Shown here in pieces: positions 2,297 to 57,137 of a stretch of 64,000 nt of DNA (position 1 is its first letter; each line of letters opens with the position of its first letter). The position numbers were made by a program, and so were the translations under genes. The notes below the pieces were generated by a model. That model made no database searches, was not told where the DNA came from, and was given only the letters and a program-made list of their open reading frames with translations. Source of the stretch: Barthelona sp. PCE (taxonomy: Eukaryota); contig JAUFOR010000008.1 in the NCBI GenBank assembly GCA_040285745.1, positions 620,001 through 684,000 of the forward strand. Reading direction: 5' to 3'.

Positions 2297-2991
2297 CTAT
2301 TCCTCTGCATCTTCATGCTTCAATAAAGATGACAGACCGTTGCTCAGGCTTAGTCCATCAAGAATAGTAGGATTCTCTTGAACTAATCTAGTGTATTCTT
2401 CAACATCAATCACACCATTGTTATCTGAATCTACTTTAGCAAAGGTGCTAGCCACAATTTCACGTAAAACATCTGTTGGTAGTTCAATTTGAGATGCTTG
2501 AAGTGTAGCATTAAGTACGGTAAAAAGTTCATCTTGATCGATGCATTTATCTCCATCAAAATCGTACAAAGAAAAGGAGAATGCAATTTTTTCAGAGAGA
2601 GTTGAGCCAGAAGAGAACACGGAGAGACCTTTAATAAACTCTCTAAAATCAATGGAACCATTATTGTCATGATCAAACACAACAAACATTCTGTGGGCTA
2701 ACAAGTCGTTGGAAAAGTTCAGCACGGATTTGAACTGCTCCTCTGTAATATAATCATCATCATTTTCTGCTCTAGCACGTTGGAAAGCATCAAAAAGCAA
2801 CTTAACGTCGTCCAAATGCACTAAATGTTAGTTTCACTCACAAAAACTTCAACTGTAAACTGAAAGAGTATGTTGTTTTAATCGTCAAACACTTTCAAAA
2901 ATTACGTGTCAAAAATGGACAAACTTTCTTGATCTGCTGCGAATTGCTCTAAATCGCTGGTTGTTGTTAGCTTAGAAGACTTTTGCCCCAT
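2297..2991 (-). CDS. Calcineurin B / CBL-like EF-hand calcium sensor; join(2925..2991,2297..2820)
   Basis: EF hands DHDNNGSIDFREF, DFDGDKCIDQDEL, DSDNNGVIDVEEY; spliced N-terminus MGQKSSKL is a myristoylation motif. Confidence 0.85.
2821..2924 (-). other. Spliceosomal intron, 104 nt, phase 1
   Basis: GTTTGT...ACTAACATTTAG; removal joins the MG start exon in frame with the EF-hand ORF. Confidence 0.75.
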
Positions 2992-3157
2992 AAATATTTC
3001 GCTTAAAGCTTTAGAGAAACGGAAAAAAAGAATAAGTATGAGAAATATTTTCTGCTGGTAAATAATATAAATTTTTAAACTGTAGATATGATTAATTAAG
3101 AGTATATCTTGTGCAAAAATATCTAAAAAAGAAGGAGCTATAAAATTTATTTTTTTT

Positions 3158-4879
3158 TTAGCACTTGAGTCCCTGCCTGTGCCATGTGGGACAGCGTTCG
3201 TTCATGTGGTTGTAAGGTGCGATGCTGTTGTGATTGGGGAGGGGGAAAATGAATTCTCCCTTTGTCTGACACACGCCAGAACCATCGTTACCACAACGTA
3301 CATCACCCCAGAAGTGGTTAGTCTTCCAGATCTTCATCTCAAAGAGATCTCTAGGGGTTGCCTCGGTGTACAATATATCCAAATCACCAAAGACACCACC
3401 ACTCTTAAAAAGAGCTGTAACCAAACCACTGCAAACCATAACAGGGCCAGTTGTATAAGGGTAATCCTCAGGTTCAATGATGGCCATAATCTCTGCAAGG
3501 GTTTTGCCCTGATTCTCAATCTCAGTAAAGGTACGATCAAGGGAAGTGTCAAGAGGGAGCCCAGTACGCCAGGCAAGACCCTCCTTGAGGAGCATGTCGA
3601 TGACCTTGGGCTTGACCTTATGTGCCATTCTGAAAACAAAACCAAAGAGCTCAGCAGAAAGTCCACCGGGTAAGTTACCAATACCGGATGGTAAGTCCAA
3701 AAACGTAAAAGCAATGTTCGAGTATCCGTAATACTTGGTCTCATGGGCGTTGTAGAAAGCTTGTGCCTTGTCGAGGTTATCAAGATAAGTCATGTGAAGA
3801 TCAGATCTCAAACGGGACATTGCAATATGACGGCTGCGATCCTGCTTACCAAGGAAATCCTTGTACGTGGTCTTTACGATACCGACAAGGTGAGGCTCAT
3901 CGCTGAAGGGTACATCGTCCACGGATTCGTAGATCCAGAGCTGCTTACCCTTTGTGTTCTCAATTACATTACCGTTGGCATCGATAGTGTATGCTGGACC
4001 ATCTGTTTCACCGACCCACATAGCAGTGGCAACGTGTCCGATAAGAGAGTTTGTACCAGAAGAAATAATGCTATCAACACCATCGTCAAGAGAAAACATG
4101 AAGAAAGTGTCACCACTCATTACCTTTGAGGGATCCAACTCGAAATCAGGCTGAGGTCTCTTCTCGAGATTAATACCGAGATCATGCTTGATGAATTGAA
4201 GAACGTGTTCCTCTTTTGCATTACCCATAAACATCGTTGCAAGATTCCACAATGAAGAGAGAGTCTCGACGAAGTTCTCGTTGGATGCAAAGATGACCAG
4301 GCCGTTCTGCTTAATGTACTTCATCTCACCTGTTGTAAGCTTCTTAATGGTCAAAGTGTGAGTACCGTGGAGGAAATCCCACTGTGTAAACCAGTCTGTT
4401 AGGGTGAGGAATAAAAAGGTTTCAGAGCAACTCTTGCCCTTGGGTCCAGTCATACGAAGAGTGATCTTCGCGGATCTGTCCTTTTCATGCAAAACGATAC
4501 CTGCCTTGATTGTCTTGAAGCATTTGCCCTCTGCAAGCTGATATCTCTTTCCGTCGGGCTTAATCTTGCCCATGAAGCGAGGAAGAGCAGCAAGGGGACC
4601 TGCATTAGCCTTGCAAGCCTCAGGACCAAGTGAACAAACACGATTCTGCATCGCTTCTGTTGTGTAGTAAGGATTTTTGTCTTTAAAGACGACGCTCTCT
4701 GCACCTCTTCGATATGTCATCAAGAACGATGAAGGATCTTGCACGAAACCCTGTTGAATAAGCTGAGCAGCTTCTGCATTTAAAGGAATCATGTTGGCAG
4801 CAACGCAGCCTAAGATACAAGCTAACACGAAGACGCCGACGACGATCACGTCGCGCATACCAAAATAACTCATAAGCAT
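3158..4879 (-). CDS. Secreted protein with a probable permuted papain-like (NlpC/P60, YiiX/YaeF-type) domain
   Basis: 573-aa ORF with signal peptide; GD..GHVA precedes MVCSGLV and TPRDL, the His-before-Cys order of permuted papain-like enzymes. Confidence 0.55.
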   Translation of the reverse strand: MLMSYFGMRDVIVVGVFVLACILGCVAANMIPLNAEAAQLIQQGFVQDPSSFLMTYRRGAESVVFKDKNPYYTTEAMQNRVCSLGPEACKANAGPLAALPRFMGKIKPDGKRYQLAEGKCFKTIKAGIVLHEKDRSAKITLRMTGPKGKSCSETFLFLTLTDWFTQWDFLHGTHTLTIKKLTTGEMKYIKQNGLVIFASNENFVETLSSLWNLATMFMGNAKEEHVLQFIKHDLGINLEKRPQPDFELDPSKVMSGDTFFMFSLDDGVDSIISSGTNSLIGHVATAMWVGETDGPAYTIDANGNVIENTKGKQLWIYESVDDVPFSDEPHLVGIVKTTYKDFLGKQDRSRHIAMSRLRSDLHMTYLDNLDKAQAFYNAHETKYYGYSNIAFTFLDLPSGIGNLPGGLSAELFGFVFRMAHKVKPKVIDMLLKEGLAWRTGLPLDTSLDRTFTEIENQGKTLAEIMAIIEPEDYPYTTGPVMVCSGLVTALFKSGGVFGDLDILYTEATPRDLFEMKIWKTNHFWGDVRCGNDGSGVCQTKGEFIFPLPNHNSIAPYNHMNERCPTWHRQGLKC

Positions 4880-8559: not shown

Positions 8560-8873
8560 AAAAATTATGAAGAATAAGGTATAAAACCATAAAATGGAGT
8601 TCTATGACATTACACAAACAGTCTAACCATTCAAGCACACTTAAATTCGTAGTTAATGGACAGGTGTAGCATATTTAAGTTCTAAAAAAGCTGTTCTTCT
8701 TTTTTTTTTGCAATCTCTTTTTTGGTTCAAGTTCAGACTACAAATGCAGTAAAAAAGGATCGAAAAATATTTTATTGCCACGTCAACGAACTACTTTGCC
8801 CACATAATTAACTAGATAAATATCAAAAATTAATTCTTTATTCTTCGTGTATTATAATGAGATATTTAAATTC

Positions 8874-11096
8874 CTACACCGTTCTGATGCCTCTGATTTC
8901 TTCAATAGCCTTCTTAATATGTTCGTCAATGGAGTTTGCACGATATGTCTTGGCGTCTTCGTCCAGGGTACTCTTAAATACCAGAACACTAGCCTGCCTG
9001 ATGTCCTCATCCTCTACAACCTCCGACAGTCGCAATCTGGCATGCGCAATGGAAAGACGAATCATCGCCATAAGGTTTCTTGGGGTGGCTCTACACATCT
9101 CTCTCATATCTGCGTACAGTTCTTCAATTAAAGGAATCAGGTCTGCACTGAGTACTGGGTTGATCTGTCGTGCCTGGTTAATAAATGCACGTAGTACACT
9201 TGGTGATAGTGATAAACTGGAGTGAACAGAATAATCTTCATTTTCATCTTCCTCGTTTTCAGAGTCCGAGGACTCAATATCCGAGTCCACAGGCTGCATT
9301 CTATTGTCGGATGCCTCATATCCAGCGTGAACAGCAAGGATATGTTTCGCAAGCAGTTCGTCTTTGTTCTGATCGTTTTCGTCTCTGAGACGCCAGATAA
9401 TATCAAAACGTGATAAAATGGCAGTGTCAAGTCCTGTTCTCTGCTCAAGCGTCTTTCCACGTGGAAGAGCATTTGCTGCAGCGAGCACTGCCGCCTTGAC
9501 GTTGACTGTGCACTGAATACCAGCTTTTGCAATGCTCAGCGTACCGCTTTCCATCACTTCGTACATACTGTTCAGATTTTCGATATCTAGCTTCTCAAAT
9601 TCATCAATTGCGAGCAGACCACCATCCGCCAAAACCATAGCACCACCCTCCAGCGTTGCTACGCGTGATCTTGGGTCAATGCGCACTGACGCGGTGAGAC
9701 CGACACCTGTTGACGATTGACCTGTCGTATACACACCACGTGGAGACAGCGCAACCGAACGCTTGATCAGCTGAGATTTTGCGACACCAGGATCACCAAC
9801 AAGAAGTATGTTCAGCTCACCGCGCATTGAAGAGCCAGACCTTGAAACTTCAGGGGACCCAACGAGCTGCAGCAGCAGAGAACGCTTGACGCTGTCCATG
9901 CCAAAGATGTGGGGAGCGATTGAGTCGCTGAGGAGCTTCAGTCGGGGATCGTTACTGAGCGAGGACAGCCCTGAAAGGTGGCCCTTCTCCTCCTCTGACA
10001 TCCGCGTGAAGAGCGTCTCTTGCTTGATCTTGTAAAAACGTTGAGCAAGGAAATGTGTATCAACAACCGGACCACGCTTAAGCGAGACGAAGTTGTTAAC
10101 TGCGCTTGGCAAAAAGACGCCTGCCACGCGCACAAGGTCACCCTGTGCGACATTACGTACCAAATCACCGTAGACTAAGATCTGAAGTAGCTGAGGCGTC
10201 TGTCCTGAAGGAACTGTGTGTGGAAGCTCCTGTAAAATGACCTCCTGAAACGCGACAAAGCGGGAGTTTGTGTGCTTGAACTCGAGAGCGCCACCGCATA
10301 GAGCGTTGGGATCGTTCTGCCTCGTCATTGTACACTTTGATCTGGGCATGTATGTGAACCCACCAATTACTTCAGTGACTTCAGCGTTGCACGTTGAGCA
10401 GTTGTAGACCGCAACCCGAAGGTACGGGGAGACCGGGCCAACACGAACAGCCACGCCCTCAACTGACCTGAGGCATCCAATGGAGTCACTTCTGAGGCGC
10501 CGTACGCTTAACACATCGATTGATGTATCGAAAAACAGACGAGGGATGAGGCAGACGTCATAGCGGCGCATCATCTCAACTGGGATTGGCAACTTCATGT
10601 TTTCTTCATCAATTACCCGACCAGCTTCACGTGCCTGTTGGATTTCGCGCTGTAGACGCTCATTGTGGAAGTCAAGGATATAATCCATGGTGTCTTTGTC
10701 GTGGGCTGGTACTTCTATGTTCAAAATTGAAGGCAGTTCTTCCAGCAGTTCATCCACCACCTCTCCGACTAATTTGCGCGCTAACACAGAATTGGACTCG
10801 AGCCTGTTGGCGACGTCAAGGAACTCTGTATGGGGTACTTCGTCAGGCATGCGGAAATCTTCACCAAAATTGTTTACGTCGACTAAGTCGTCAATATACA
10901 AGAAAAACAGCCTACTCTGTCTAAGGAAAATCTCCCGTAGCATATCTATGTAACGGGAACCATCGCTTCTTGACACGAATTTGAGGAAGAAGTTCTTCAA
11001 AAATGCTGAATCCTTCTGAATGCATAAGAAATCCTCTGCTGTGCGCCCCTCTTGTACTCCTTCGTTGACGCCCGCTCTTGGTTCAGCGGGATTCAT
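8874..11096 (-). CDS. MCM7: DNA replication licensing factor MCM7
   Basis: Zn finger CSTC...C...C, FQEVILQELPHTVPSG, Walker A LVGDPGVAKSQL, Walker B IDEFEKL, arginine finger SRFD, TPRNL. Confidence 0.88.
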   Translation of the reverse strand: MNPAEPRAGVNEGVQEGRTAEDFLCIQKDSAFLKNFFLKFVSRSDGSRYIDMLREIFLRQSRLFFLYIDDLVDVNNFGEDFRMPDEVPHTEFLDVANRLESNSVLARKLVGEVVDELLEELPSILNIEVPAHDKDTMDYILDFHNERLQREIQQAREAGRVIDEENMKLPIPVEMMRRYDVCLIPRLFFDTSIDVLSVRRLRSDSIGCLRSVEGVAVRVGPVSPYLRVAVYNCSTCNAEVTEVIGGFTYMPRSKCTMTRQNDPNALCGGALEFKHTNSRFVAFQEVILQELPHTVPSGQTPQLLQILVYGDLVRNVAQGDLVRVAGVFLPSAVNNFVSLKRGPVVDTHFLAQRFYKIKQETLFTRMSEEEKGHLSGLSSLSNDPRLKLLSDSIAPHIFGMDSVKRSLLLQLVGSPEVSRSGSSMRGELNILLVGDPGVAKSQLIKRSVALSPRGVYTTGQSSTGVGLTASVRIDPRSRVATLEGGAMVLADGGLLAIDEFEKLDIENLNSMYEVMESGTLSIAKAGIQCTVNVKAAVLAAANALPRGKTLEQRTGLDTAILSRFDIIWRLRDENDQNKDELLAKHILAVHAGYEASDNRMQPVDSDIESSDSENEEDENEDYSVHSSLSLSPSVLRAFINQARQINPVLSADLIPLIEELYADMREMCRATPRNLMAMIRLSIAHARLRLSEVVEDEDIRQASVLVFKSTLDEDAKTYRANSIDEHIKKAIEEIRGIRTV

Positions 11097-11310
11097 CGTT
11101 TGATTGTGTGATATGGAAAGTATAAGTGGAAACAGGATTTTTGTTGTCTGTAATTGATTTAGTGGTCTCTATTTAATAGTTATGTCCTTATTTGCTGAAA
11201 ATATTTAGCTTAAAGGACGCTTTGAATTGCCGGTGGCAATGAAGTATTTTCTTTTTACTTTATTGCTTATTTTGCAAATAAATCACGTTTATTCGTCCAC
11301 AATAAGGAGA

Positions 11311-11348
11311 TGAATTATCATATTTTAGCTGAATTATCATATTGTAGT
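11311..11348. repeat. 19-bp direct tandem duplication in the MCM7/PA2G4 divergent promoter region
   Basis: TGAATTATCATATTTTAGC followed by TGAATTATCATATTGTAGT. Confidence 0.7.
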
Positions 11349-11534
11349 CCATTCACAAATCAGCCTGATAATTTTGAATTCACTCACCTATTGATGGCTT
11401 TTTTTGAGGACAATAATGCTCCGGGAGGTAGATACAGTAATTACCAATTGGTTACAGAGGTTGCTTAAGAAGCAATCTTCTAAAACTATATCTCCCCCTT
11501 ATCCCTTTTGGATTCGCATTGCAACTAGTTTAAT

Positions 11535-12733
11535 ATGTCTGAGGAATACGATAACTACGACGAGAACGAATACGAAGAAGATTACGAAGAAGAAGAGGAA
11601 CGCACAATCGAGGCTCCCGAGGTTGTGACCCAATTCCGTATGGCCAGTGAGATCTCTGACGGTATGAATACATAAAAAGGGCTCAAAAACACTCACATTT
11701 AGCTGCTTTGGCTTTTGCCGCTTCCAAGTGTATCCCTGGTGCTATTATTGCTGAGGTTTGTGCTGAGGTCGATAACTTTGTCGAGGAAGAGTCTTCAAAG
11801 TTCTACAAGCGCAATCCCGATATTCTTAAAGGTATTTGCATCCCTACTTGTATCTCTGTTAACAACGAGTCTCAATACAACTCCCCTTCCATCAACAACA
11901 GTGATGCAGTCCTCGCTGAAGGTGATATGGCTAAGATTGAAGTTGGTATTCACATTGATGGTGAGCCCGTTTGTGCTGCTTTCACTGTCGTAATTGGCCA
12001 GGAAGAGGTCACCGGCCGTAAGGCTGACGTCATGGCCGCTGTCTGTAAGGCTGGTGAAGCTGTCTACAAGATGCTCCGTCCTGGTGTTCAGGCTCACGAG
12101 ATCTCCCGAATTGTCGGAGAGGTTGCCGCTGAGTTCGACTGTCGCCCCGTTCAGGGTACTATGTCCCATCAGGTTGGTTACTACATCCTCAAGGGTGCTA
12201 ACTGTATTCCCAACCGTCAGGAAGCCGATGTCAAGTACGAGAACTTCACCGTCGAAGAGAACACTGTTTTCAACATTAACATTCTCATGTCTACTGGTAA
12301 CGGTATTCTTCACAACGGTGGTGAGCGTCCCAGCATCTTTAAGCGTGATTTCGATTACAACGATTCCCTCCGTACTCGTTCTGCCCGTCAACTCCGTGAT
12401 GAGGTTGAGGCTAACTCTTTCAACTTTATGTTCTCCCTTCGTCAATATCCCGGCTCACATGGTCTTCTTGGTATTAAGGAACTCACTGAGACTTATCATG
12501 TTCAGGCTTTCCCTGTACTTCTCGAGAAGAAGAACGAGTTCATTGCCCAGTATTCTATTACCGTCTTTGTTTTCCCTAACCACAACCAGAACATCAGCAA
12601 GCTTCCCGCTATGCAGATGATTAACTCAGAGAAGCAAATTTTGAGTGAAGAGATCAACGAGATTCTCAACAAGAGTGTCGAGAAGAAGAAGAGGAAGAAG
12701 AGAAAGAAGAAGAAGAAGCCTGCTGAGGAGTAA
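11535..12733 (+). CDS. PA2G4: PA2G4/Ebp1 (M24 fold, non-peptidase); join(11535..11661,11703..12733)
   Basis: KGICIPTCISVNN, KIEVGIHIDG, VTGRKADV, GTMSHQ, Lys-rich C-terminus; spliced acidic N-terminus MSEEYDNY...EVVTQFRMASEISD. Confidence 0.9.
11662..11702 (+). other. Spliceosomal intron, 41 nt, phase 1
   Basis: GTATGA...ACTCACATTTAG; contains an in-frame stop and its removal restores the frame. Confidence 0.9.
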
Positions 12734-12768
12734 AATTTATTGATATTGCTTTTTTGTACTTTATTTCA

Positions 12769-13925: not shown

Positions 13926-14021
13926 GCCCTATTATATCATCTTTGATGAATAAATATGTGAAGGAGTATGGTAAACGAATTGCAAGCCTGGTTTTAACTA
14001 TTCTACTTTTTTGCAAACCAC

Positions 14022-15650: not shown

Positions 15651-15669
15651 ATAGTTTTATTGAGAGATA

Positions 15670-16563: not shown

Positions 16564-18343
16564 TTACAAGGGAAGTAAATGACTGTAGAAGAAGTTGAAA
16601 TTTTCCTTGTGATCGATCTTAAATGAATTCTCGCAATTAAAGAAATATATTGATCCAGTATATACATTACTGGCCTTTTCTGTGCTATCTTCACGCTTAA
16701 AGAATGTTCTGAACTCTGAATTGAACGCCCACTCGCGCTTCTTTAGCTCCTTTATCACCCTATGCTGTGAATACCCAGTTTCAGTGAAGCTCCTAAACAG
16801 GAGACTTTCGGTTTTTGCGGTACGGATGCCCTTACTATCAATAACACTAACGCTTGACGTGGGGAAGCAATCTGGCACCGGAGCTGGGTTTGAGGGTGTG
16901 TGGAAAAGCAGTGACACTTCATCAGATATACTTAGCTTATGTTGCTTTGCTTGTGATAGAACACCAAGCACTTCTTCGCGTTTGCTGCTGTGATCAACTT
17001 TTTTACGTTGAATTGTGGGGGTCTTCAGCTTGGCGAGATGCTTGGCCAGCGTACTGCTCTCATTAAAGTTGGTTTTTGGAGTAGTGATCTGTTCGGCCAG
17101 ACTGGGGGTAGAACTTGAAGCAATTGAAGAAGATGAAGTGTGTGACGTGTTGCTCATTGTGCTCATACTGCGCTGTCTTGTGATTGGCTCATCAGGAATA
17201 ACAGGAACAATGGGAGGCTTCTTCTGCTCCTTTTTGGGAGCTAGTTCTTCCTTCTTCTCATCATCATCTCTTCTATCCTTTTTAGGCGCAGGTTCCTTCT
17301 TATGAACTTCAATTTTGGGCTCAGGAACCTCTTCCTCTCGGACTGGTTCCTTGCTTCCCCTCTTTGCTGACATCAATCTTTTTGATTGGAAGCGTTCCAA
17401 TTCCAAAGGGTCGTAAATACCATCGTCCTCAATGAAATCAAAGTCCGGCTCAGCATTTTCCTCCATAAAAATCGCCAGCTTCTCCTGGATAGTTTCCATA
17501 ATGAACTCAGACTCCAATTCGTCATTCTGCTGAACTCGCATGATTAACTCGAGCATGTCAATGTGTCGTGTGTGCCTGTCAATGCGCTCCTCCAACAATA
17601 ACTTCTCCATAGAAAGTTCACTGGGCATTTCCACCTCAGCCGTTTGATGGTGTCTCCGACGCTTGCTCTTCTTGCGCCTCTTTGCTGGTTTCTTGGAGTA
17701 TTTTGACACAAGGGCATCGAGATCGATCCTAAGCTGGTCTCTTAACCTTTCCAACTCATCACGGAGTTCTGTTAGCCATTCAAAGCATTCCTGCTTCTTC
17801 TCTTCTTGTTCACTCAACTTCTTGGAATGAAGGCTACGTGAACGGGACTTGTTCTTTGCCTTGAGCCCTCTCTCCAGTGATTTGAATGCTTCCATTCGTT
17901 CTTCAACAGTTCTTCTGGCCTCGAGCAATCGATCCTTTTCTCTCATGTTGGATCCCGATGATGCCCATCGTTTCACAAGATCCCTCAGCTTCTGTAACTT
18001 CCTGAGCTGTAGCTTCATCTCGTTCTGGAATTTATCCTCTTGTTGTTGTGTTTCAGACATATCGAATAATTCGTATGCCTCATCGAAGAGAACAATGTGT
18101 TCGGATATGGACTTAAATGTCTTCTCCATCTCATCTAAATATTAGTTACGTTTTTTTTGTTAATGTGAAAATTTCACTAAATGCACAAAAAGGTTTTGTT
18201 ACGGTTTAAATGACCGCAACACCCGATTCGAAACACATTGTAGAAAGAGCAATGTGATAAACCCGGAAAAATACATCATGCAAAAAATAAAAAAGTAAAA
18301 CACATTGATAAGTCATACTGCGTAGTTTTCGTGCCTGTGACAT
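16564..18343 (-). CDS. NOT3: CCR4-NOT subunit NOT3/NOT5; join(18319..18343,16564..18134)
   Basis: Spliced start MSQARKLRNEMEKTFK, KLQKLRDLVKRW, LLEARRTVEERMEAFK, C-terminal NOT box (KELKKREWAF). Confidence 0.9.
18135..18318 (-). other. Spliceosomal intron, 184 nt, phase 1, after a 25-nt first coding exon
   Basis: GTATGA...ACTAATATTTAG; restores the conserved RKL N-terminal motif of NOT3. Confidence 0.9.
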
Positions 18344-30751: not shown

Positions 30752-31271
30752 GGTAATTGTGAAGTCATGATACGAAGGAAATCATCAAAAGTGACAAACT
30801 TTCCATCTGGATCACTAGAGAATTCGGAAATCATTGCTTCAAGCTCGGCCTCGTCTACAGGCTCGTTTAATTCACGGCAAGTTCTCTTTAAATCAGTGAA
30901 GCTAATCTTACCATTTCCTTGTACATCAATAAGGTTGAAAGCTGTTCTAATTTCCTCAACTGGATCTCTCTGGACGATCTTTTCACCCATTACGTTGGAA
31001 AAAGCAGAAAAATCAATCATACCTTCCTCACCATATTCTTCCAAGATGCGAAGAACTTCAGGCTTTGAAGTCTCGAGGCCAAGTGCTCGCATGGCAACCT
31101 AAACGTGAGTTTCATGTGTTAAATAAATAAATATACCTTTAATTCGTGATACCCAAGTCTGTTTGTCTTATCGACATCGAATAGTGTGAATGCTTCGCGG
31201 ATTTCTGTCTGTTGCTCAGAGGTGAGTTCGGTGCGGCGCTTTCTCCTTGTTTGCGTAAGGCTCATAGACAT
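30748..31271 (-). CDS. CETN3: Centrin-3/Cdc31-type centrin; join(31137..31271,30748..31098)
   Basis: ELTSEQQTEIREAFTLFD...YHELK|VAMRALG, RDPVEEIRTAF, GKISF, ELEAMISEF. Confidence 0.88.
31099..31136 (-). other. Spliceosomal intron, 38 nt, phase 0
   Basis: GTATAT...ACTCACGTTTAG splitting the ELK|VAMRALG motif. Confidence 0.92.
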
Positions 31272-38417: not shown

Positions 38418-39840
38418 ATGAGTGATTACCAACAAGAACAGTACGTGGAACAGCCACGTGAACCCCAAAACGATCAGTATTATGATGAAGAAGAGGAAGC
38501 TGTTGAGAACTACTTTGAGAGCAACTTCGATGAGGAAGTTGAGTCATTCGAGGCTTTAGAGCTCGAAGACGATCTTTACAGAGGTATTGTCAACCATGGT
38601 TTCGAAGTGCCTTCTAAGATCCAGAAGCTCGCTATTCTCCCCATTATGGCCGGTATGTTTGCATTTAGTAATGGTCCTCGGTGATATAATCACAAGAAAT
38701 GAATAGTTTAAGTGTTGTTTAACATGGTATTTTTTTATTTGATTTTTTTCCACTGAGATGACTATTTAAGTACAACCACAAGTTGTATCTCCACAGTTGA
38801 CAATCTAATTTTTAGGTCTCGATGTTATTGCCCAAGCCCAATCTGGTACTGGAAAAACAGGTACCTTCTCCATTGCCGCTCTTGCTAATGTTGATCCCGA
38901 AATTCCCCACCCCCAGATCATCATTGTCTCCCCCGTACGTGAGCTCGCTGAACAGACCTACGGTGTCATCAAGTCTATTGGTGCCTACATGGATGTCGAA
39001 ATCGGTCTCGCTGTCGGTGGTTGTTCTCTCGATGAGACCCTCGCTGAGATGAGAAAGAACCCCAAGATCATTTGTTGTACTCCTGGTCGTCTTTTCTCTT
39101 TGATTGATCGTCGTTTCCTTAACACTGATCACGTTGCCACAATTATTGTTGATGAGGCTGATGAGATGCTTTCCCAAGGTTTCAGAGAGCAGATCTGGGC
39201 CATTTTCCACTCCCTCCCCAAGGAGATTCAGGTTGTTTTGGTTTCCGCCACTATGCCTCAAGAGATTCTTGAGCTCACTCAGCACTTTATGCGTGATCCC
39301 GCTCGTATTCTCGTCAAGAAGGATGAACTCACACTCGATGGTATCCGTCAGTTTTACGTCCGTTGTCAGTCCGATAACTGGAAGTTCCAGACTTTCTTAG
39401 ATCTGTATAAGAGGTTAAAGATTGATCAAGCCGTTGTTTTCTGTAACCGTAGAACTGAGGTTGAGAACCTCGCACACATGCTCGATAAGGAAGGTTTCCC
39501 CGTCATTGCTACACATGGTAAGGTCGAGGGTGATGAGCGCCGTCGCATTATGCGTGATTTCCGTGAGGGTCGCGCCCGTCTTTTGGTCACAACTGATCTT
39601 CTCTCCAGAGGTATCGATGTCCAGCACGTTTCTTTGGTCTTCAACTATGATCTCCCTGCAAAGAAGGAATCTTACATTCATCGTATTGGTCGTTCTGGTC
39701 GTTTCGGTCGTAAGGGTTTCGCTATTAACCTTACTGTTGAACGTGATGTCGATAAGCTCACTGAGTTGATGGATCACTACGATACCAACATTGAGACTCT
39801 TCCCAACAACATTGAGGATATCATCGCCGGTGCTGACTAA
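38418..39840 (+). CDS. EIF4A: Translation initiation factor eIF4A; join(38418..38652,38816..39840)
   Basis: Q motif GFEVPSKIQ, AQSGTGKT, PVRELA, TPGR, DEAD, SAT, KKDELTLDGIRQF, HRIGRSGRFGRKG. Confidence 0.95.
38653..38815 (+). other. Spliceosomal intron, 163 nt, phase 1
   Basis: GTATGT...TCTAATTTTTAG; removal gives LPIMAG-LDVIAQAQSGTGKT. Confidence 0.92.
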
Positions 39841-45853: not shown

Positions 45854-45883
45854 TGTTTATTGTCTATATTGTAAATAGTGTCA

Positions 45884-49469: not shown

Positions 49470-49539
49470 TTATTTTCTTTCTTTTTCTTCGACTTTTATA
49501 CAGTATGCTTGCATTTATCCAACAACATTAATATTGTAT

Positions 49540-50202
49540 TTACTCGAATTGATTCTCTATACCTTTAAAATCAGGCAGTAAAGATATTGTTACTTCTTTA
49601 ATTTGATCAGCAAATTGTGCACTGGTGGCATCTTCAATGCCAAATACCCGCATTCCAGCACTGATTGATGCTTGGCAGCCTGCAAAGTTATCCTCAAAAG
49701 CGATACAACGTTCAGGTGCTACATTAATACGTTCAGCAGCTAATAAAAACACGTCAGGATGCGGTTTACCACGTTTAACATCAGAAGAAGATGCGAAGGC
49801 GGGTATAAGACCGCTTAGATTATGTCTATCAATCGTTGCTTGAATCATTGCAGGGACAGCAGAACTAGCAATGGCTATTTTCTTACCGTGGTTATTAAGA
49901 TATTGTAAGAATTCCATGGCACCAGGCTTCAACTCCACGACTTCATGGTAGAAGTCAATAGCCATATCGTGCCAAATTTTCATGAGTTCTTCATGAGTAT
50001 CAGGTAAATTGAATGTGTTAATAAAGAGGTCAGCACACTCATAGAAGCTGAGGCCGTGTATTTTGTCTTGAAATCCTTCAGGATAAGCTAATCCCCTGTC
50101 AACAATGAACTTTTTATCAATTTCAACCCAAATACCCATTGAATCAGCTAAAGTACCGTCCATATCAAAGATTACGGCATCGAAAGAGCTCAGTTCTATC
50201 AT
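49540..50202 (-). CDS. HAD-superfamily phosphatase (beta-PGM/CbbY-like)
   Basis: AVIFDMDGTLADS, IASS, GKPHPDVF, CIAFED, AGM. Confidence 0.92.
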   Translation of the reverse strand: MIELSSFDAVIFDMDGTLADSMGIWVEIDKKFIVDRGLAYPEGFQDKIHGLSFYECADLFINTFNLPDTHEELMKIWHDMAIDFYHEVVELKPGAMEFLQYLNNHGKKIAIASSAVPAMIQATIDRHNLSGLIPAFASSSDVKRGKPHPDVFLLAAERINVAPERCIAFEDNFAGCQASISAGMRVFGIEDATSAQFADQIKEVTISLLPDFKGIENQFE

Positions 50203-50883
50203 GATTTTGATCAATAAAGTGTGTTGGAAAAGGTAAGAATTTGTAAAACATTGTTTCTTTGTTTATTTGTAAATGAAATTAACATGTTGTGGGGTTAGTT
50301 TGGTATCCATAAAGATAGGGTGTTGTTTTGATAAAATCTAACTTGGGTGAGTTTTCAAGACCTATGATCAGGTTCTTTGGACATATTTAAATAAACTTCA
50401 TAACATCTTGAAATATGACTATGCACCTTAAAATGTAAGATTTGAAGCATTTTTTGAAGTATATTAGGGCATTCAAAAAAATACTATCATGTACCAACAA
50501 AGGAAAGATAATTGTAGTCATTAGCAGCTGAAGTCAATATATATTTCGCCATGCGTGTAAATCATCCCTGAATTATCCCTTAAAACAAATAAAAAATGTC
50601 TTTCAATATAAGTATTGTGCCTCAGGTTGTAATGCCACTGTTAAGATTAAACCACAAAGTAAATTACATATGTTGGATGTAAAGAAGAATAAATTTGCTT
50701 ACAAGGAAATTCCAGCAAAACTTCTCTTTCTTCACATTGTACCTATTTTATCCAACTGACAAATTGGATTACCTTTGTATATCACAATAAACATTGTAAA
50801 ATACTAAAAAGACAGTTCAATTCAACTCTTTACTGAATTGTGTAGCAACGTTGTTGCAAGTAATAGTAACCTATAACAGACAT

Positions 50884-51162: not shown

Positions 51163-51722
51163 TTTCTTGTGAACAGCTAGATAAAGTGTTAAAAACTAAA
51201 AGAAGTAGTTTTATCAATATAGAAGGTATTTACATTTGCTGACACGTAGAATGTTCATATTAGACGGTATCTGTAACTGTTTTATATATCCAAAAACACT
51301 TTAGACACTTGTATTTGGGTTTCTTTCCTTTTTGAACAGTTGTTCCGGAAAATTTTAGGCAAAGAATCGATATAGACGTTGCAAATAATGTAAGACGGGC
51401 TGGGTATGCCAAAATGTAATGTATTGATGGGAGTTTTTTTTATTACCATTTGTTGCGTTATATGAAGTAAAAACGATATTGTTGTGGTCAGTCTTAACAT
51501 GGAACCACGTATTTGACGATATATCTTTTTGTTTTAACACGCAAACATGATGAAGTACACCCTGCAAGCAGTTGTTTTGGGCTTCACAGGTTCATCTCAG
51601 ATTTACATTGTTAAATAGCCGACAATGGATGTATTTTGTGTGGTCATAGCTTCTTTCAATAAGCATCGAACCGGCACCAACTAATATTCTCTTTACACCC
51701 CTTTTTACATATTAGTTACACA

Positions 51723-52949
51723 ATGGAGACAGTAGAGTGCATTTTTCCATACATTAATCAGCTTCCAAAAGCTGAACTTCATTGTCATTTCGATGGGTCA
51801 TTGCGTCTTGCTTCCATGCTTGAAGAAGCAAAGAAACAAACTCAACAACACGATGAAGAAGTCGAAGAGGACCCAGAAAACCCTCTATACGTCCAGAAAC
51901 AAATAAGTGTGCTCACTAAAGATGAAATTAAGGAGCTAGTACAGCCACCCATGGGCGGTGATCTGATCCAGTATCTCCAGGCATTTAGATACACCCTGTC
52001 TGTATTACAGATCAAAGAAGCAATTCACCGTCTTTATCTCGATTTGGTTGAAGATTTAAGTGATGATGGAGTTATTTATGCCGAAATTCGTTTCGATCCC
52101 CAGCTGCACACGCATCTTGGTCTATCTTTATCAGAAGTTCTGGCAACAATGTGTTCAGCAGCAGCGGATGGTTACGAAGAGCATGGTGTTACTACCAAGA
52201 TTATTGTTTCTGCACTCAAGAACCAGAGCGCAACATACGTAACAGAGGTAGCCCAGATTGGTGTTGAATACAGTGATTCCGGAGTAGTCGCCTTTGACCT
52301 TTGTGGTCCAGAAGAGAGTAAGGCAACTTCTCGCTTCTCAACAGCAGTAGAGCTTGCATTGGAAGGAGGATTACACTTCACTTGTCATGCAGGAGAAGTT
52401 CTTGGTCCTGATGAGATGCGTGATGCGATGCAATATGCTACTAGAATTGGACACGGTACCCACGCCATTGAGGACCCTGATCTTGTTGTTGAGCTCGTTG
52501 AGAATGATATTTGTCTTGAGCAATGTATTACATCCAACATTCACACCAATTGTGTAGCTTCTTTAGATGAACATCCAATTGTTAATTTCATCGAAGCTGG
52601 AGTCCCCATTGCACTTTCCACTGACAATAGACTGGTTTCAGATTGTACATTGTCTTCTGAGTATGAGTTATTGATAGAATTACTGGGGAAGGATTTTCCC
52701 CTTTCGACATTCGTTCTTCTCTTATTACAACCATTCAAGCACGGTTTTGCCTCCACAGCTGAACTTGTTGATGTTATTGAACGTTTTTTTATGCATTTGT
52801 TCAGCTTTTTACACGGAATTGGTGTCGATATTGCTGTTTTATCATGTGAGATCCTTCTACAGGAGGATGCACACGAGTTTAAGGAGATCATCTGCACTAC
52901 AGTTCTTGATATTGTGAGAGAAGCTTCTTCAAGCTCTGAATCTGAATAA
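51723..52949 (+). CDS. ADA: Adenosine deaminase
   Basis: LPKAELHCHFDGS, YAEIRF, FDLCGPE, HAGE, RIGHG, CITSN, STDN. Confidence 0.9.
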   Translation: METVECIFPYINQLPKAELHCHFDGSLRLASMLEEAKKQTQQHDEEVEEDPENPLYVQKQISVLTKDEIKELVQPPMGGDLIQYLQAFRYTLSVLQIKEAIHRLYLDLVEDLSDDGVIYAEIRFDPQLHTHLGLSLSEVLATMCSAAADGYEEHGVTTKIIVSALKNQSATYVTEVAQIGVEYSDSGVVAFDLCGPEESKATSRFSTAVELALEGGLHFTCHAGEVLGPDEMRDAMQYATRIGHGTHAIEDPDLVVELVENDICLEQCITSNIHTNCVASLDEHPIVNFIEAGVPIALSTDNRLVSDCTLSSEYELLIELLGKDFPLSTFVLLLLQPFKHGFASTAELVDVIERFFMHLFSFLHGIGVDIAVLSCEILLQEDAHEFKEIICTTVLDIVREASSSSESE

Positions 52950-53101
52950 GTTCCCATTAAGGTTTTTAAACATTCTGTTCATTTTACAGGTATTGTTTTG
53001 ATGGTACAGCGAGATTAGAGTTAAGTAAATGTATGTAATACAATTTGGTGAATACCTGTTTTCAGTTTTTCTTTTTTCCTCCCATTCCCTACTGATAGTT
53101 A

Positions 53102-55696
53102 ATGTGTCCGGAGTTAACACCAGCAGCGTTCGCCCCATCACGGTCTACTCACACATCACGTCGAGGAACAGCAACTTCCGCTACTAGTGAAGTTACTTCA
53201 TCTATATGTGCGATAAGCATTCACAATTTCAAAGTTTCCGCAGTATTTTTCCGCCCCCAAACAGGAGAAATCCGAGTAATGGCCTTCCATGACAGTTCCA
53301 CTTTTTCCACTCTCATCCTTTTTTTATTGTCGGAGAATGTACAGGAGGTCATTTTTGGGGGCACCAGCATTCCATACGCGGTCAATCTTTTCTTTGAAGA
53401 ACATTTGGGCTTTGTTTTAGTTACAATTGTGCAGAAACATCTTTTTTCTGCAGATGTTGGTCAGCAGCTGTTCAAAACGCTTGTTTTCAACGAGCAGAAG
53501 CATTTACTTGATGAAATAATGTCCCCAGCTTTGTTTGGTTGTTTTCGTGCTGTCATTTCCCATGTTCAATCTTCAAAGAATCTTATCTTCGCTCCACAGA
53601 CAATATCTTGTGTCAAAAAGTCACCGGTCGGACGTATGAGACTTGATCCCCATTCATTTTTTGATCTCGATCTTGAATCTCTCTTTTTGATAATTAATTC
53701 ATGCCAGTCGCCCATGGGTTCACGTTTGCTGTGGTCTGAGCTTGTGATGCCGCCCTGTGACGTGCGCACAATACAATCACGTCAAGAGGCCATTCTCGCA
53801 CTGGATATGTTGGATGACAATGTTCTCCAGCTCTATCTTCAGTCTTCAGATATCATCAAAACATTGGGAAAAATGCTGGGCCCCCCTAGGTCGGGGAAGG
53901 ACGCGCTCACAATTGTAAGACAGTTTGAATCGATGAAAATCTTTTTAGAAAACTGCATTCATATTGCAATTTGTCTCGAGCCTATCGCTGCACACTCTTT
54001 CTTGCTTGCTGAGATGCAGAGAATATGTTCTTCTTCCAGTATAAAATCCTTATTGGACACTCTTTCGACGGTTTTTGTTTCGGATTACCAAGCAATCGCC
54101 ATTGAGCTTTTTCCACCCATCGAAGCCGTGTATTCGATTGTTGAGACTTACATGAAAAGCAACAAAATGCTGTTTATGATTGCAGCAAACGTATCCAAGG
54201 CGCTTGATTTTCATAGGAGAACGTTCTTAGAGCTTCTTTATGATATTTCAATGCTAATAGAGGTTATGCAGGGTAGGATAGGAGCGCCTCTGCGCCTTAT
54301 CGTTCTGAATAGCAGCGTTACATGCTCATGTGCACTCAAGAAATTGTCGTATATCGATGGGAAACTTGTGGAGCACCTGTCGGAGCTATTGGGAACAGCT
54401 GTAACGGTTGACCGCATCACAAAAACGACAGTGCGCTTCTCACCGGAAGACTTTCGAACGTTGGGGACACACCTCACTCGAACAAAAGATGAGCTCTGCG
54501 ACACCATACTCCTCGTTCTGAGCGGCATCATTCCTCGCCTGAACAACGAAAACAGCGAGATGATTGCCAATGATGAGCTCATTGCACCGAGCTCCCACTT
54601 GAGGATCCATCTATCTCCTCTTTTGTGGGCATTTGATGCTGTTGCGTTGCTTGATGTCCTTTATGCTTTACACAGAATCCCCACGGCTGTTGAAGGCTTG
54701 GGTTCTGATGAGTTTTGCATACCCGAGTTGTCTGACGATTTTAGCTTCTCGATGCTAAATGTCTTGTCTTTGACAGACTACAAGAGAGTAGTTGAGGCAG
54801 GAGATCCATGGCGTCACAACTCTCTGGTGTCTCGTCGTGCCATGAGTCTTGTGATGGGAGGTAACGGTCAAGGAAAGTCAACACTGCTCCGAGGTATTGG
54901 GGCAGCTGTTATCATCCATCAGGTTGGAGGCCGAGTTCCAGCGACACAAGCATCATTTCCAATCTTTCAGCATTTCTGCACCGTGTTTCCTACGATATCA
55001 GAGCTCTCTATTCACGGAGGCGCACTTCAACAGGAGCTGATGCGTGTGAAACAGGCGCTCGAGTTTCTCGGATCTGAAACAGAGGAAATGCTTTTCCTTG
55101 CGGATGAACTGTTTACTACCACAGCGTTTAACGACGCCTCGGCGCTTCTGTTTGGTGTTCTTGAGCATTTAATTTCGCAATCAGTGTTGGGCTTCGTTTC
55201 CACTCATTTAGCCAATGTAGGTGCCTTGCTTGTTGAGTTTTACGATGACGTGTCATGCCTGCACTTCATGGACGCACCATCAGAAGTCTCGAGGAAGCGT
55301 TTGGCGAGTTATTCTGACGTTTCGCTTTTTGAAGATGAGAACCCCAGTCATTTACTCAGCAATGACACCCCAAAACCGGCATCCAATCCACCATACGGCA
55401 TCCTTGCAGCCGTTCGCAGTGGATTTGGTGGAGAATTGGCAGCGAGAATGATGAACAACAGAAAATGCATACTTGCTCAGATTCGGGCTCCTGTAGCTCA
55501 ACCAACAACAATCATGAGCACTACTGTTGCCAGGCAACGTGATATTCACTCGATTCCGTTTACTGACGCATATAGAGCGTACAAGCGTATTTATGAACTT
55601 TCAACGTCAGGTCTCAGTTCGCTTTCAGTTAAAAACATCGTACAGGAACTGCAGCGATCAATTTTCGGGGACGCGCAAGAAGATTACACAATTTAA
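53102..55696 (+). CDS. MSH4: Divergent MutS homolog, MSH4-like (meiotic)
   Basis: No mismatch-binding domain I; FHDSSTFSTLI, LFSADVG, IFAPQTI, SPMGSRLL, IQSRQEAI; Walker A GGNGQGKST, Walker B LADEL, STH. Confidence 0.7.
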   Translation: MCPELTPAAFAPSRSTHTSRRGTATSATSEVTSSICAISIHNFKVSAVFFRPQTGEIRVMAFHDSSTFSTLILFLLSENVQEVIFGGTSIPYAVNLFFEEHLGFVLVTIVQKHLFSADVGQQLFKTLVFNEQKHLLDEIMSPALFGCFRAVISHVQSSKNLIFAPQTISCVKKSPVGRMRLDPHSFFDLDLESLFLIINSCQSPMGSRLLWSELVMPPCDVRTIQSRQEAILALDMLDDNVLQLYLQSSDIIKTLGKMLGPPRSGKDALTIVRQFESMKIFLENCIHIAICLEPIAAHSFLLAEMQRICSSSSIKSLLDTLSTVFVSDYQAIAIELFPPIEAVYSIVETYMKSNKMLFMIAANVSKALDFHRRTFLELLYDISMLIEVMQGRIGAPLRLIVLNSSVTCSCALKKLSYIDGKLVEHLSELLGTAVTVDRITKTTVRFSPEDFRTLGTHLTRTKDELCDTILLVLSGIIPRLNNENSEMIANDELIAPSSHLRIHLSPLLWAFDAVALLDVLYALHRIPTAVEGLGSDEFCIPELSDDFSFSMLNVLSLTDYKRVVEAGDPWRHNSLVSRRAMSLVMGGNGQGKSTLLRGIGAAVIIHQVGGRVPATQASFPIFQHFCTVFPTISELSIHGGALQQELMRVKQALEFLGSETEEMLFLADELFTTTAFNDASALLFGVLEHLISQSVLGFVSTHLANVGALLVEFYDDVSCLHFMDAPSEVSRKRLASYSDVSLFEDENPSHLLSNDTPKPASNPPYGILAAVRSGFGGELAARMMNNRKCILAQIRAPVAQPTTIMSTTVARQRDIHSIPFTDAYRAYKRIYELSTSGLSSLSVKNIVQELQRSIFGDAQEDYTI

Positions 55697-57137
55697 CTAC
55701 TGTTCATGACCCAGTCGATATAGTTTGGATCTTCAGCTGCCTTATATTCAGAAATGAGATCTTCAACTGTTGCCTCAGCCTCGTCGAAGTCATCCATTGT
55801 AAGACCAGCTTCTAGATAGGTGTTGATGAAAGCGGGGCCCTTGAAGCGACTCGTCTCTTTCTTCTGGTTACGAACGCTCAGAGGACCACCCAGCATCCGC
55901 TTATAGTCGTTTAGGTGATGGTTAAAGATATTTTTGACACTTGTATGATTGGCCAGCATGAGTCCCTCAGTGCGATTACTTGATTCAATGTAGGGAGACT
56001 TCTTTGTTACTGTTACGTTGAAGTTAGCGGGACCCCACTCAATAAAACGAGCAAGTCCACGAGCTCTAATGTTTTGAAGTGACTTATGGATATCTTGAGG
56101 GTTGGCTTCACCCAATAAAATATTTAGAACACTGATATACTTACCAGCGTTGGTCTTGGCTGACAAAAGCATATTGCTGGGCTGGAGCAGTCTACGCATG
56201 ACATCCGTAACTGTTGTTTTGCGGACGTCCTGTGTTAAGCGACGTGTGTTAATTGGGGTGTATGAGCTCATTAAGAAATGCAAGCGAGGCGTTGGCACCA
56301 AACTTGAGATGAGCGACTGGAGATCATTGTTCATGAACGAGGGGAATCGCAATGTGTTGGTTGAGGCAGACATAACAGTTGCTATCAGACTATTAATATC
56401 ATTGTAGTCTGGGTTTTCAACCTTCAATCGATCTTGGACGATACTGTGCAGTGCTGTGTTATCAATGACAACGCAGCTGTCCACGTGGTTAATTAGGCGT
56501 TGTAATGTAAGGATTGTATTGTAACCTTGAACAACAACATCACTTTCATTAACATTGGGGAATACAGAGTATGTTTGCACAAGCTTTTTGGGGTAGCGGT
56601 CTTCAAACTGTTCCAAAAGCCACGAACTCATACCTGAACCGGTACCACCAGCCACAGAATGACAAAGAGTAAAACCTTCAAGAGAATCAGCAGTATCAAC
56701 TTCTCGATCAATCATTTCAAGGACTGTTTCGGCATGTGTTTGTGCTAGTTCATAACCCTGAGCCCAATTGTTACCAGCACCTGTACATTCTTTAGGTACA
56801 AAAACGTTTTCGTGGTTGAAGAACATCTTCCATTCACTGCGCATAATGGAGTTAATGACACCAGGTTCGAGATCCAGTAAAATAGCTCTGGGTACGTAGT
56901 GATTATCGTCTGCTTGATAGAAGAAAACATCTTTGCGATCATTAAGCTCTCTCTCATCTAAAAGTGTACCATCGGGTCCGATATTGTGCTCATCGGCCAG
57001 AGTCTTCCAAAATTGGGATCCTACTAGGTGTTAGAGACACTGACAAAAAGACGGATGACAAAGCTGTCAACTATCTATACGCGCATACTCTGGTTTCCGC
57101 ACTGGCCCACCTGCAATGTGATAATTTCCCTTGGCAT
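55693..57137 (-). CDS. TUBG1: Gamma-tubulin; join(57089..57137,55693..57023)
   Basis: MPREIITLQVGQCGNQIG, DRKDVFFYQADD, GAGNNWA, HSVAGGTGSG, FIEWGPA, GLMLANHTS. Confidence 0.97.
57024..57088 (-). other. Spliceosomal intron, 65 nt, phase 1 in codon 17
   Basis: GTATGC...TCTAACACCTAG; restores GNQ-IG. Confidence 0.95.

What the first reader, a model, noticed from the sequence alone, without database searches (positions are those of the whole stretch)
2821..57088. All six introns end in a fixed 12-nt fused branch-point/acceptor block
Seen: the 3' ends are ACTAACATTTAG (CnB-like), ACTCACATTTAG (PA2G4), ACTAATATTTAG (NOT3), ACTCACGTTTAG (centrin), TCTAATTTTTAG (eIF4A) and TCTAACACCTAG (gamma-tubulin). 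Consensus is WCTMAYNYYTAG, with the putative branch A always 7 nt before the intron end, no separate polypyrimidine tract and always TAG. Donors are GTATGN in four cases, plus GTATAT and GTTTGT. All lie in the first 80 codons of conserved genes; lengths are 38-184 nt. Known: Trichomonas (ACTAACACACAG) and Giardia have fused BP-3'SS of similar geometry. Inference: ruler-type acceptor selection with the spacing fixed but the sequence relaxed, suggesting a reduced spliceosome.
Basis: partly seen in the sequence, partly recalled or inferred. Interest (0 to 1): 0.7.

Follow-up and report, generated by a model that had tools for sequence, protein, structure and literature searches.

The report
Fixed-spacing introns in a free-living protist
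The few hundred introns of this single-celled anaerobe appear to end exactly seven letters after their branch point, the layout already known from Giardia and Trichomonas, here in a free-living relative that may have lost the helper proteins needed to reach farther splice sites.

Summary
Confirmed, and it holds genome-wide. All six introns restore conserved reading frames. In G000 (10.2 Mb) the 12-mer occurs 244 times with 7-nt spacing, against 68 and 78 with 6 or 8 nt. A gene finder blind to branch sites also lands on 7 nt. Long introns fold better than controls. U2 snRNA, Prp8, U2AF65, U2AF35, SF1, PHF5A, U1C and Yju2 are present. Slu7, Prp18 and Cactin were not found (weak negatives). SF1 lacks the motifs that bind U2AF65. 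The architecture is known: Trichomonas type A and Giardia introns have the same 7 nt, and Entamoeba invadens has it with relaxed sequence. The host is a barthelonid metamonad, for which my searches found no description of introns. Best mechanism, inferred: 7 nt is the shortest usable distance, and loss of second-step docking factors removes longer ones. No RNA evidence was available. New member of a known kind; interest 0.42.

The parts
2821..2924 (-). Intron, 104 nt, phase 1, in a calcineurin-B-like EF-hand gene; donor GTTTGT at 2924, 3' block 2832-2821, putative branch A 2828
11662..11702 (+).
18135..18318 (-). Intron, 184 nt, phase 1, in NOT3; donor GTATGA, 3' block 18146-18135, branch A 18142; interior folds into a long stem (z -3.3, 0 of 200 shuffles as stable)
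31099..31136 (-). Intron, 38 nt, phase 0, inside the first EF-hand of a centrin-like gene; donor GTATAT, 3' block 31110-31099, branch A 31106
38653..38815 (+). Intron, 163 nt, phase 1, in an eIF4A-like DEAD-box gene; donor GTATGT, 3' block 38804-38815, branch A 38808; folding not beyond shuffles (z -0.76)
57024..57088 (-). Intron, 65 nt, phase 1, after codon 16 of gamma-tubulin; donor GTATGC, 3' block 57035-57024, branch A 57031; a second TAG follows at once, and the profile match supports the first one (7 nt)

Best explanation
These are U2-type spliceosomal introns in an intron-poor barthelonid metamonad, in which the branch site and acceptor form one 12-nt element (N-C-T-A-A-Y-A-T-T-T-A-G, branch A at -8). 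SHOWN from sequence: the spacing, the donor GTATG(T), a U2 snRNA able to pair from -12 to -5, structured long introns, and the presence of SF1, U2AF65 and U2AF35. INFERRED, step by step: (1) SF1 (KH-QUA2) reads CUAAY and U2AF35 reads the AG only 4 nt further on. There is no room for the usual SF1 / U2AF65-on-pyrimidine-tract / U2AF35 chain, and SF1 has lost the motifs that tie it to U2AF65. (2) U2 takes over the branch site. (3) After branching, the acceptor docks at the shortest distance the active site allows. Without Prp18 the usual 10-nt minimum falls to 7; without Slu7, Prp18 and Cactin, distant acceptors cannot be delivered. Floor and ceiling meet at 7 nt, and the weaker check on -3 lets AAG through. 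Internal stems keep long introns compact. My confidence that these are real introns with fixed 7-nt spacing is about 0.95; the figure given here is for the mechanism.
For: Spacing: 244 against 68 and 78 genome-wide (Poisson p about 1e-55). One intron rule passes 53 of 99 seven-nt hits, 1 of 30 eight-nt hits (30 of the 78 fetched) and 17 of 578 random YYTAG. Branch-blind finder: of 75 high-confidence introns, 52 end in the selected 12-mer; 11 of the other 23 have a branch motif at 7 nt against 3.8% of control AGs (p 2e-10). U2 at G000:C1:606049-606221 scores 51.7 bits, over the cut-off; positions -11, -10 and -7 pair in 89, 90 and 90 of 90, -6 in 67 and -5 in 76. U2AF65 RRM1-2 E 5e-21; SF1 E 1e-10. 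The 304-aa SF1 model has no ULM tryptophan and no RSPSP, against 56 and 69 of 102 homologues with long N-termini. Slu7, Prp18 and Cactin gave 0 candidates, while Prp8, Yju2, PHF5A and U1C rang. Yeast: without Prp18, acceptors down to 7 nt are used, the normal minimum being 10 (PMC10711555, passages); Slu7 is not needed at 9 nt or fewer (PMC10158995, passages); Cactin serves distant acceptors in S. pombe (PMC9508853, abstract). Introns of 80-300 nt: mean folding z -1.59 (45 of 49 negative) against -0.28 for intergenic controls (49 of 98), p 3e-8.
Against: No RNA or lariat data. The three absences are weak: the tool flags them as not showing absence, and it missed the SF1 helix-hairpin family although SF1 is present. 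C. merolae lacks Slu7 and Prp18 yet has 18 of 38 introns with 20 nt or more, so their loss does not force short spacing. The third U2AF65 domain matched no solved structure but still looks RRM/UHM-like in the Atlas, so it may bind other partners; 8 codons of the open frame upstream of SF1 were not seen. A looser scan was uninformative outside the selected sites: 42 non-selected candidates at 7 nt against 23-66 at other spacings. Folded 'effective length' did not differ from shuffles (median 38 against 36.6). -4 is T in 82 of 90 and cannot pair with U2, so something else reads the T run. U1, U4, U5 and U6 snRNAs were not identified (U4 not searched).
Confidence: 0.5

Rival explanations
1. The distance is fixed early, at recognition. 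A rigid SF1-U2AF35(-U2AF65) contact, or extended U2 pairing, reads the 12-mer as one block; the second step is ordinary and its factors are present but too diverged to detect.
For: SF1, U2AF35 and a U2AF65 that keeps its own ULM-like tryptophan are all retained. TTT at -5 to -3 in 71 of 90 looks like a protein-read mini-tract. This U2 has A where the Rfam consensus has G, opposite a -5 that is T in 76 of 90 and in 20 of 23 unselected introns.
Against: SF1 has lost its known link to U2AF65. A T-rich 3' end could explain -5 without U2 co-adaptation. No direct SF1-U2AF35 contact was tested.
Confidence: 0.27
2. There is no ruler. The spliceosome takes the first AG after the branch, as in most eukaryotes, and uniform spacing only reflects selection for efficient splicing plus loss of other introns.
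For: 0 of 90 introns have an AG between branch and acceptor. 11 of 90 have a tandem AG just downstream, and in gamma-tubulin the proximal one is supported. E. invadens allows 8-nt spacing in 16.8% of introns, a Trichomonas type B intron uses 8 nt, and Spironucleus uses 8.
Against: Counts at 6 and 8 nt are alike and near background, and 1 of 30 eight-nt sites passed the intron rule. In T. vaginalis, moving the branch motif by 2 or 7 nt abolished splicing (as reported in PMC6679479).
Confidence: 0.2
3. On origin, and compatible with any mechanism above: the 7-nt fused end was inherited from an early metamonad ancestor and later relaxed in intron-rich relatives, instead of arising separately in parabasalids, barthelonids and diplomonads.
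For: The same spacing, GTATGT-type donors and structured long introns occur in all three groups (here). Barthelonids branch as sister to fornicates (PMC11316075, passages).
Against: Kipferlia, nested between them, has 124,912 introns (PMC5874029); its branch spacing was not given in the passages read. The block sequence differs (ATTTAG against ACACAG). Constrained spacing arose repeatedly in yeasts and Entamoeba.
Confidence: 0.35
4. The motifs are chance matches and the 'introns' are over-reading.
For: The reversed-pattern control gives 239 against 244 genome-wide; about 30% of pattern hits are background.
Against: The reversed pattern is a poor control, because it gives 233 and 245 for the 6- and 8-nt patterns whose real counts are 68 and 78. 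Junctions restore conserved proteins.
Confidence: 0.02

Closest known systems
Trichomonas vaginalis type A introns (PMC6260720, passages; PMC2483917, passages)
   Same: 12-nt fused block, branch A 7 nt from the end, 4 nt between CTAAC and AG, no pyrimidine tract, structured long introns.
   Different: Spacer is ACAC there and mostly ATTT here. Acceptor is TAG, AAG or CAG here. Branch hexamer is far more variable here. A few hundred introns against about 65. No 25-nt type B class seen (shortest of 90 is 37 nt; my finder allowed about 22 nt and up).
Giardia cis-introns, [G|C]TATGT ... CT[A|G]ACACACAG (PMC10711314, passages)
   Same: Same spacing, donor and 5' bias; tolerance of a non-G first base (CT there, probably TT here).
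   Different: Giardia has a handful of such introns and trans-splices several; no split intron was found among the sites inspected here. U2 here keeps a recognisable canonical fold.
Spironucleus introns, GTAAGTY ... RCTAACAARHTAG (PMC6679479, parts 1-5 of 8 read)
   Same: Fused end with TAG, short class near 40 nt, stems in longer introns.
   Different: 8-nt spacing. S. salmonicida lacks detectable U2 proteins; PHF5A, SF1 and U2AF are present here.
Entamoeba invadens introns (bioRxiv 10.1101/2022.06.08.495308, abstract and sections 12 and 17)
   Same: Branch A at -8 in 81% of 904 introns with a relaxed AYTRAY: fixed spacing, relaxed sequence.
   Different: Unrelated lineage; donor GUUUGU; 17% of introns use one more nucleotide, which was not seen here.
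Yarrowia lipolytica and Debaryomyces hansenii introns (PMC2483917, PMC10711555, passages)
   Same: Constrained branch-to-AG distance without a pyrimidine tract.
   Different: Other distances (2 nt between CTAAC and AG in Yarrowia) and broader spreads.

Membership tests
U2-type spliceosomal introns | GT...AG ends | tested here: met
   88 of 90 curated introns GT-AG, 1 GC-AG, 1 probable TT-AG; the finder favoured GTATG donors by design
U2-type spliceosomal introns | Removal restores a conserved reading frame | tested here: met
U2-type spliceosomal introns | U2 snRNA with GUAGUA able to pair with the branch site; Prp8 | tested here: met
U2-type spliceosomal introns | U1, U4, U5 and U6 snRNAs | tested here: inconclusive
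   No Rfam match over cut-off for U6, U1 or U5; motif leads unverified; U4 not searched
U2-type spliceosomal introns | Excised from RNA as a lariat at the predicted A | not testable with these tools
   no RNA data in hand
Trichomonas type A / Giardia fused branch-acceptor introns | Branch A fixed 7 nt from the intron end | tested here: met
Trichomonas type A / Giardia fused branch-acceptor introns | No separate polypyrimidine tract | tested here: met
   18 nt upstream of the block are 39% T and 15% C against 36% and 17% inside introns; a 3-nt T run lies inside the block in 71 of 90
Trichomonas type A / Giardia fused branch-acceptor introns | Sequence (A)CTRACACACAG | tested here: not met
   0 of 90 end in ACACAG; ATTTAG in 49. 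Same architecture, different consensus
Trichomonas type A / Giardia fused branch-acceptor introns | Long introns fold internally | tested here: met
   (p 3e-8 against intergenic controls); the 35-45 nt effective-length claim was not distinguishable from shuffles
Trichomonas type A / Giardia fused branch-acceptor introns | Spacing is required for splicing (mutational test) | not testable with these tools
   shown for T. vaginalis as reported in PMC6679479
Giardia trans-spliced introns | Acceptor half without a donor in cis | tested here: inconclusive
   12 sites read by eye: 10 have cis donors, 2 unresolved (L081 -, L087 +); only the first 100 of 244 pattern hits were fetched
U12-type (minor) introns | RTATCCT donor | tested here: not met
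   0 of 90; minor snRNAs not searched
Strongly reduced spliceosome (diplomonad or C. merolae grade) | Loss of U1 and U2 proteins and of step factors | tested here: inconclusive
   Present: U1C, PHF5A, SF1, U2AF65, U2AF35, Yju2, Prp8. No candidate: Slu7, Prp18, Cactin C-terminal domain, U1-70K N-terminal domain. Only 11 proteins surveyed

The most novel reading that the evidence does not exclude
Seven nucleotides is the hard geometric minimum of the spliceosome's second step. This free-living metamonad reached it independently by losing Prp18, Slu7 and Cactin and by uncoupling SF1 from U2AF65, which would explain why unrelated reduced lineages land on the same number. Its several hundred introns, including AAG acceptors, a probable UU-AG intron and a 6-nt micro-exon, would then be the largest natural test set for that rule among metamonads.
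Probability: 0.25. Interest if true: 0.72.

Novelty: new member of a known kind. Interest (0 to 1): 0.42.

Why it matters
Why intron-poor lineages converge on a fixed branch-to-AG distance has been open since Irimia and Roy 2008 (PMC2483917). The metamonad cases so far are parasites with 3-65 introns. Here it occurs in a free-living sister of fornicates with a few hundred introns and a largely readable machinery, so the rule can be tested statistically and tied to named proteins (Prp18, Slu7, Cactin, the SF1 ULM). It also weakens the link between this architecture and parasitism. In practice the 12-mer is a good annotation tool: a public model of one alpha-tubulin starts at an internal methionine and lacks the first exon.

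Tried and rejected
No RNA holder was listed for window 8800-18700, so no reads were laid. A loose donor-plus-branch pattern was swamped by chance (2060 against 1819 control). The reversed-pattern control was rejected as unfit, since it scores about 240 for all three spacings. A per-distance scan with a relaxed motif gave 99 candidates at 7 nt against 23-66 elsewhere, but only 42 outside the selected sites, so it was uninformative (middle of the output cut). The effective-length measure did not separate introns from shuffles. U6: the Rfam search scored 48 of 976 candidates with no good hit. Of five ACAGAG..GAATAGC hits, four lie in apparent coding frames; the fifth (L150) has a 5' hairpin (better than 97% of random 28-mers), but its pairing with the U2 5' end is no better than random (55%) and it has no Rfam U6 match. 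Five further core matches could not be inspected. U5: two loop matches; the one in hand has no flanking stem. A metagenome scan for gamma-tubulin loci, meant to test intron age, returned one distant locus. Earlier findings: none on this genome. No complex prediction was run, as a negative would carry no weight. The cut-offs use no 3'-end information but were chosen after I had seen the list. The 90-intron set was curated by hand and has A at -8 by construction, so it describes the consensus and does not test spacing; one duplicate intron was dropped.
Full report
Observation. Each heads a long reading frame that lacks its start, and each has an upstream donor that joins a short ATG exon in frame. 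Lengths are 104, 41, 184, 38, 163 and 65 nt. None is a multiple of three, and retention brings in a stop. Profile coordinates continue across the junctions. For gamma-tubulin, exon 1 covers profile positions 1-13 and exon 2 starts at 15, so the first of two tandem TAGs, 7 nt from the branch A, is the acceptor. The odd GTTTGT donor agrees with a public gene model whose product aligns to CBL2 without a gap across the junction; I do not know what evidence that model rests on.

Host. The window is G000:C8:620001-684000 of a 10.2-Mb, 8-contig genome. A protein identical to one from G000 carries the genus label Barthelona. Barthelonids and skoliomonads are free-living metamonads, sister to fornicates (PMC11316075, passages). 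That paper mentions introns once, in its methods; its supplements were not read and may bear on this. Eight papers hold 'Barthelona' and 'intron' (six listed, one read by passages) and none holds 'Skoliomonas' and 'spliceosom'. These searches are my only basis for saying that the introns of this lineage seem undescribed.

Is the spacing fixed genome-wide? Three tests say yes. First, the same letters with 6, 7 and 8 nt after the branch A occur 68, 244 and 78 times, an excess of about 170 at 7 nt. The tool's reversed control gave 239 and so showed no excess, but it gives 233 and 245 for the other two patterns and is therefore unfit. Second, I fetched 80 stretches of 10 kb around the first 100 listed hits and 30 of the 78 eight-nt hits. 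One rule (coding frame begins at the AG, donor upstream) passed 53 of 99 seven-nt hits, 1 of 30 eight-nt hits and 17 of 578 random YYTAG sites (Fisher p 1.5e-7). Third, a gene finder that knew donors and AG but nothing of branch sites predicted 210 introns in 864 kb, many of them false joins between genes. Of 75 with a strong downstream exon and a short upstream one, 52 ended in the selected 12-mer. Of the other 23, 11 had a branch motif exactly 7 nt out, against 3.8% of control AGs (p 2e-10). By my reading, 6 more were mis-picked AGs near a 7-nt site and 6 were false calls. None supported another distance. A looser scan did not add support outside the selected sites.

The consensus. In 90 hand-curated introns (67 matching the pattern, 23 not; A at -8 by construction) the branch pentamer is CTAAC 36, CTAAT 23, CTCAC 12 and CTCAT 6, with 13 others such as CTTAC, TTAAC and CTGAC. 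The last six bases are ATTTAG in 49; acceptors are TAG 83, AAG 5 and CAG 2. Donors are GTATG in 78, with GTATAT, GTTTGT, GTGTGT, GTATT, GTACGT, GCATGT and TTATGT making up the rest; none is of the U12 type. Lengths run from 37 to 442 nt (median 91) with a sharp lower edge. The upstream exon is 240 nt or shorter in 86 of 87, partly by selection. There is no pyrimidine tract upstream of the branch, but -5 to -3 is TTT in 71. I infer a few hundred introns in all: about 170 that match the pattern, plus others found at 23 per 800 kb in intron-enriched stretches. Introns of 80-300 nt fold better than their dinucleotide shuffles (mean z -1.59, 45 of 49 negative), and intergenic controls do not (-0.28, 49 of 98; p 3e-8). 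The folded end-to-end length, however, was no shorter than in shuffles.

Unusual cases. Three alpha-tubulin paralogues share an intron after codon 14. Two have GTATGT (L052, L054); the third (L045) has TTATGT at that place. The nearest in-frame GT donor would delete a residue present in 149 of 149 homologous motifs. This is a probable UU-AG intron, comparable to Giardia's CT-AG, unless it is an assembly error or a dead copy. A dynein light chain gene has three introns and a 6-nt exon; only with that exon does it give an intact protein. Three introns split the start codon as AT/G. Of 12 sites read by eye for lack of an automatic donor or for other oddities, 10 had cis donors, so I found no sign of trans-splicing; 144 hits were never seen.

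Machinery. U2 snRNA lies at C1:606049-606221 (51.7 bits). It keeps GUAGUA and has A where the consensus has G two bases upstream, opposite intron position -5, which is T in 76 of 90. This fits co-adaptation but also simple T richness. Prp8, Yju2, PHF5A and U1C are present. A U2AF35-like gene shows the first-finger motif and a second CCCH finger 129 codons on in frame (not fetched; ZRSR has the same layout, recalled). U2AF65 (373 aa) keeps a ULM-like tryptophan (my reading of the sequence) and RRM1-2 (E 5e-21). It has no RS repeats, and its third domain matched no solved structure at E 10 yet looks RRM/UHM-like in the Atlas. SF1 keeps KH, QUA2 and a zinc knuckle but starts after the place of the ULM and lacks RSPSP; 56 and 69 of 102 homologues with long N-termini have these. 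In human SF1 this region binds the U2AF65 UHM and is needed for cooperative RNA binding (PMC3553976, abstract). Slu7, Prp18, Cactin and the U1-70K N-terminal domain gave no candidate. These are weak negatives, since the SF1 helix-hairpin family was also missed. U1, U5 and U6 were not identified.

Mechanism. For the second step, yeast lacking Prp18 uses acceptors as close as 7 nt, counted as here, against a normal minimum of 10; its YAG check is relaxed (PMC10711555, passages). Slu7 is not needed at 9 nt or fewer (PMC10158995, passages), and Cactin promotes distant acceptors (PMC9508853, abstract). A spliceosome without these factors would have its floor at 7 and little reach beyond, which gives a fixed distance with no dedicated ruler. 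I put this at 0.5. Against it, C. merolae lacks Slu7 and Prp18 and still has long spacings, and the absences here are unproven. Early block recognition (0.27) and plain first-AG choice (0.2) remain open.

Comparison. Irimia and Roy described this architecture as convergent in intron-poor lineages, with 4 nt between CTAAC and AG in Trichomonas and Giardia (PMC2483917, passages). Trichomonas type A introns have the 7-nt distance (PMC6260720, passages). Giardia has [G|C]TATGT and CT[A|G]ACACACAG (PMC10711314, passages). Spironucleus has one more base and stems in long introns (PMC6679479, parts 1-5 of 8). E. invadens has the branch at -8 in 81% of 904 introns with a relaxed motif (bioRxiv 10.1101/2022.06.08.495308, sections 12 and 17). 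The finding works like these and shares their architecture, but not the ACACAG sequence. Kipferlia, which lies between barthelonids and diplomonads, is intron-rich (PMC5874029, passages), so convergence is somewhat more likely than inheritance. From memory, and untested (one search failed), five of the six window introns sit at positions shared with human genes.

Verdict. Real, genome-wide, and a new member of a known kind. The added value is the lineage, the sample size, the SF1 motif loss, the possible UU donor and a testable reason for the number seven. Interest 0.42.

Noticed in passing
L045 4918-5003 (+), G000:C1 near 717.4 kb: Probable TT-AG intron (TTATGT donor) in a divergent alpha-tubulin; two paralogues have GTATGT at the same site; the public model lacks exon 1.
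   Followed up: partly
L089 4364-4919 (+): Dynein light chain gene with three introns and a 6-nt micro-exon at 4451-4456.
   Followed up: partly
L050 1338-1387 (+); L049 5055-4893 (-); L077 5249-5112 (-): Introns that split the start codon as AT/G; the first ends in AAG.
   Followed up: no
L151 (G000:C4:417165-417885, -) and L146 (G000:C2:661560-662900, -): SF1 without ULM or RSPSP, and U2AF65 without RS repeats and with a diverged third domain.
   Followed up: partly
L001 1501-1673 (+): U2 snRNA with AUUC in place of GAUC, one extra base before and two extra bases after GUAGUA, and a short stem IIb.
   Followed up: partly
G000:C8:1200227 (L150), C2:54456, C8:1477751: Unverified U6 snRNA leads with ACAGAG and AGC cores.
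   Followed up: partly
G000:C8:2100523: A GACRFG-coding match with no CCCH finger listed nearby; could be a ZRSR-like protein (motif recalled) or chance.
   Followed up: no
L087 2470 (+); L081 7248 (-): Strong 3' blocks with no assigned donor: one just before the ATG of a ribosomal-protein gene (probable 5' UTR intron), one at the head of a 651-codon frame.
   Followed up: partly
window 21023-23818 (-): About 920-aa fusion of a flavodiiron protein (lactamase fold plus flavodoxin), a Cys-rich rubredoxin-like linker and an NADH:rubredoxin oxidoreductase; a self-contained oxygen or NO scavenger, probably of bacterial origin (inference).
   Followed up: partly
window 53099-55696 (+) and 15670-16455 (-): A MutS-family gene (domains III and V; MSH4/5-like by my reading) whose stop overlaps that of gamma-tubulin, and a RING-finger coiled-coil gene (Zip3/HEI10-like by my reading): possible meiotic genes.
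   Followed up: no
window 49540-50262 (-) and 51663-52949 (+): HAD-family phosphatase and adenosine deaminase, candidates for transfer from bacteria (origin not tested).
   Followed up: no
L081 1998-2055 and 7870-7927 (+): Two EF-1alpha-like copies with identical introns; the second copy has a frame break.
   Followed up: no
L066 5040 (-), L079 5138 (+), L094 5141 (+): A dispersed repeat that contains the 12-mer and adds non-intron hits to the genome count.
   Followed up: no
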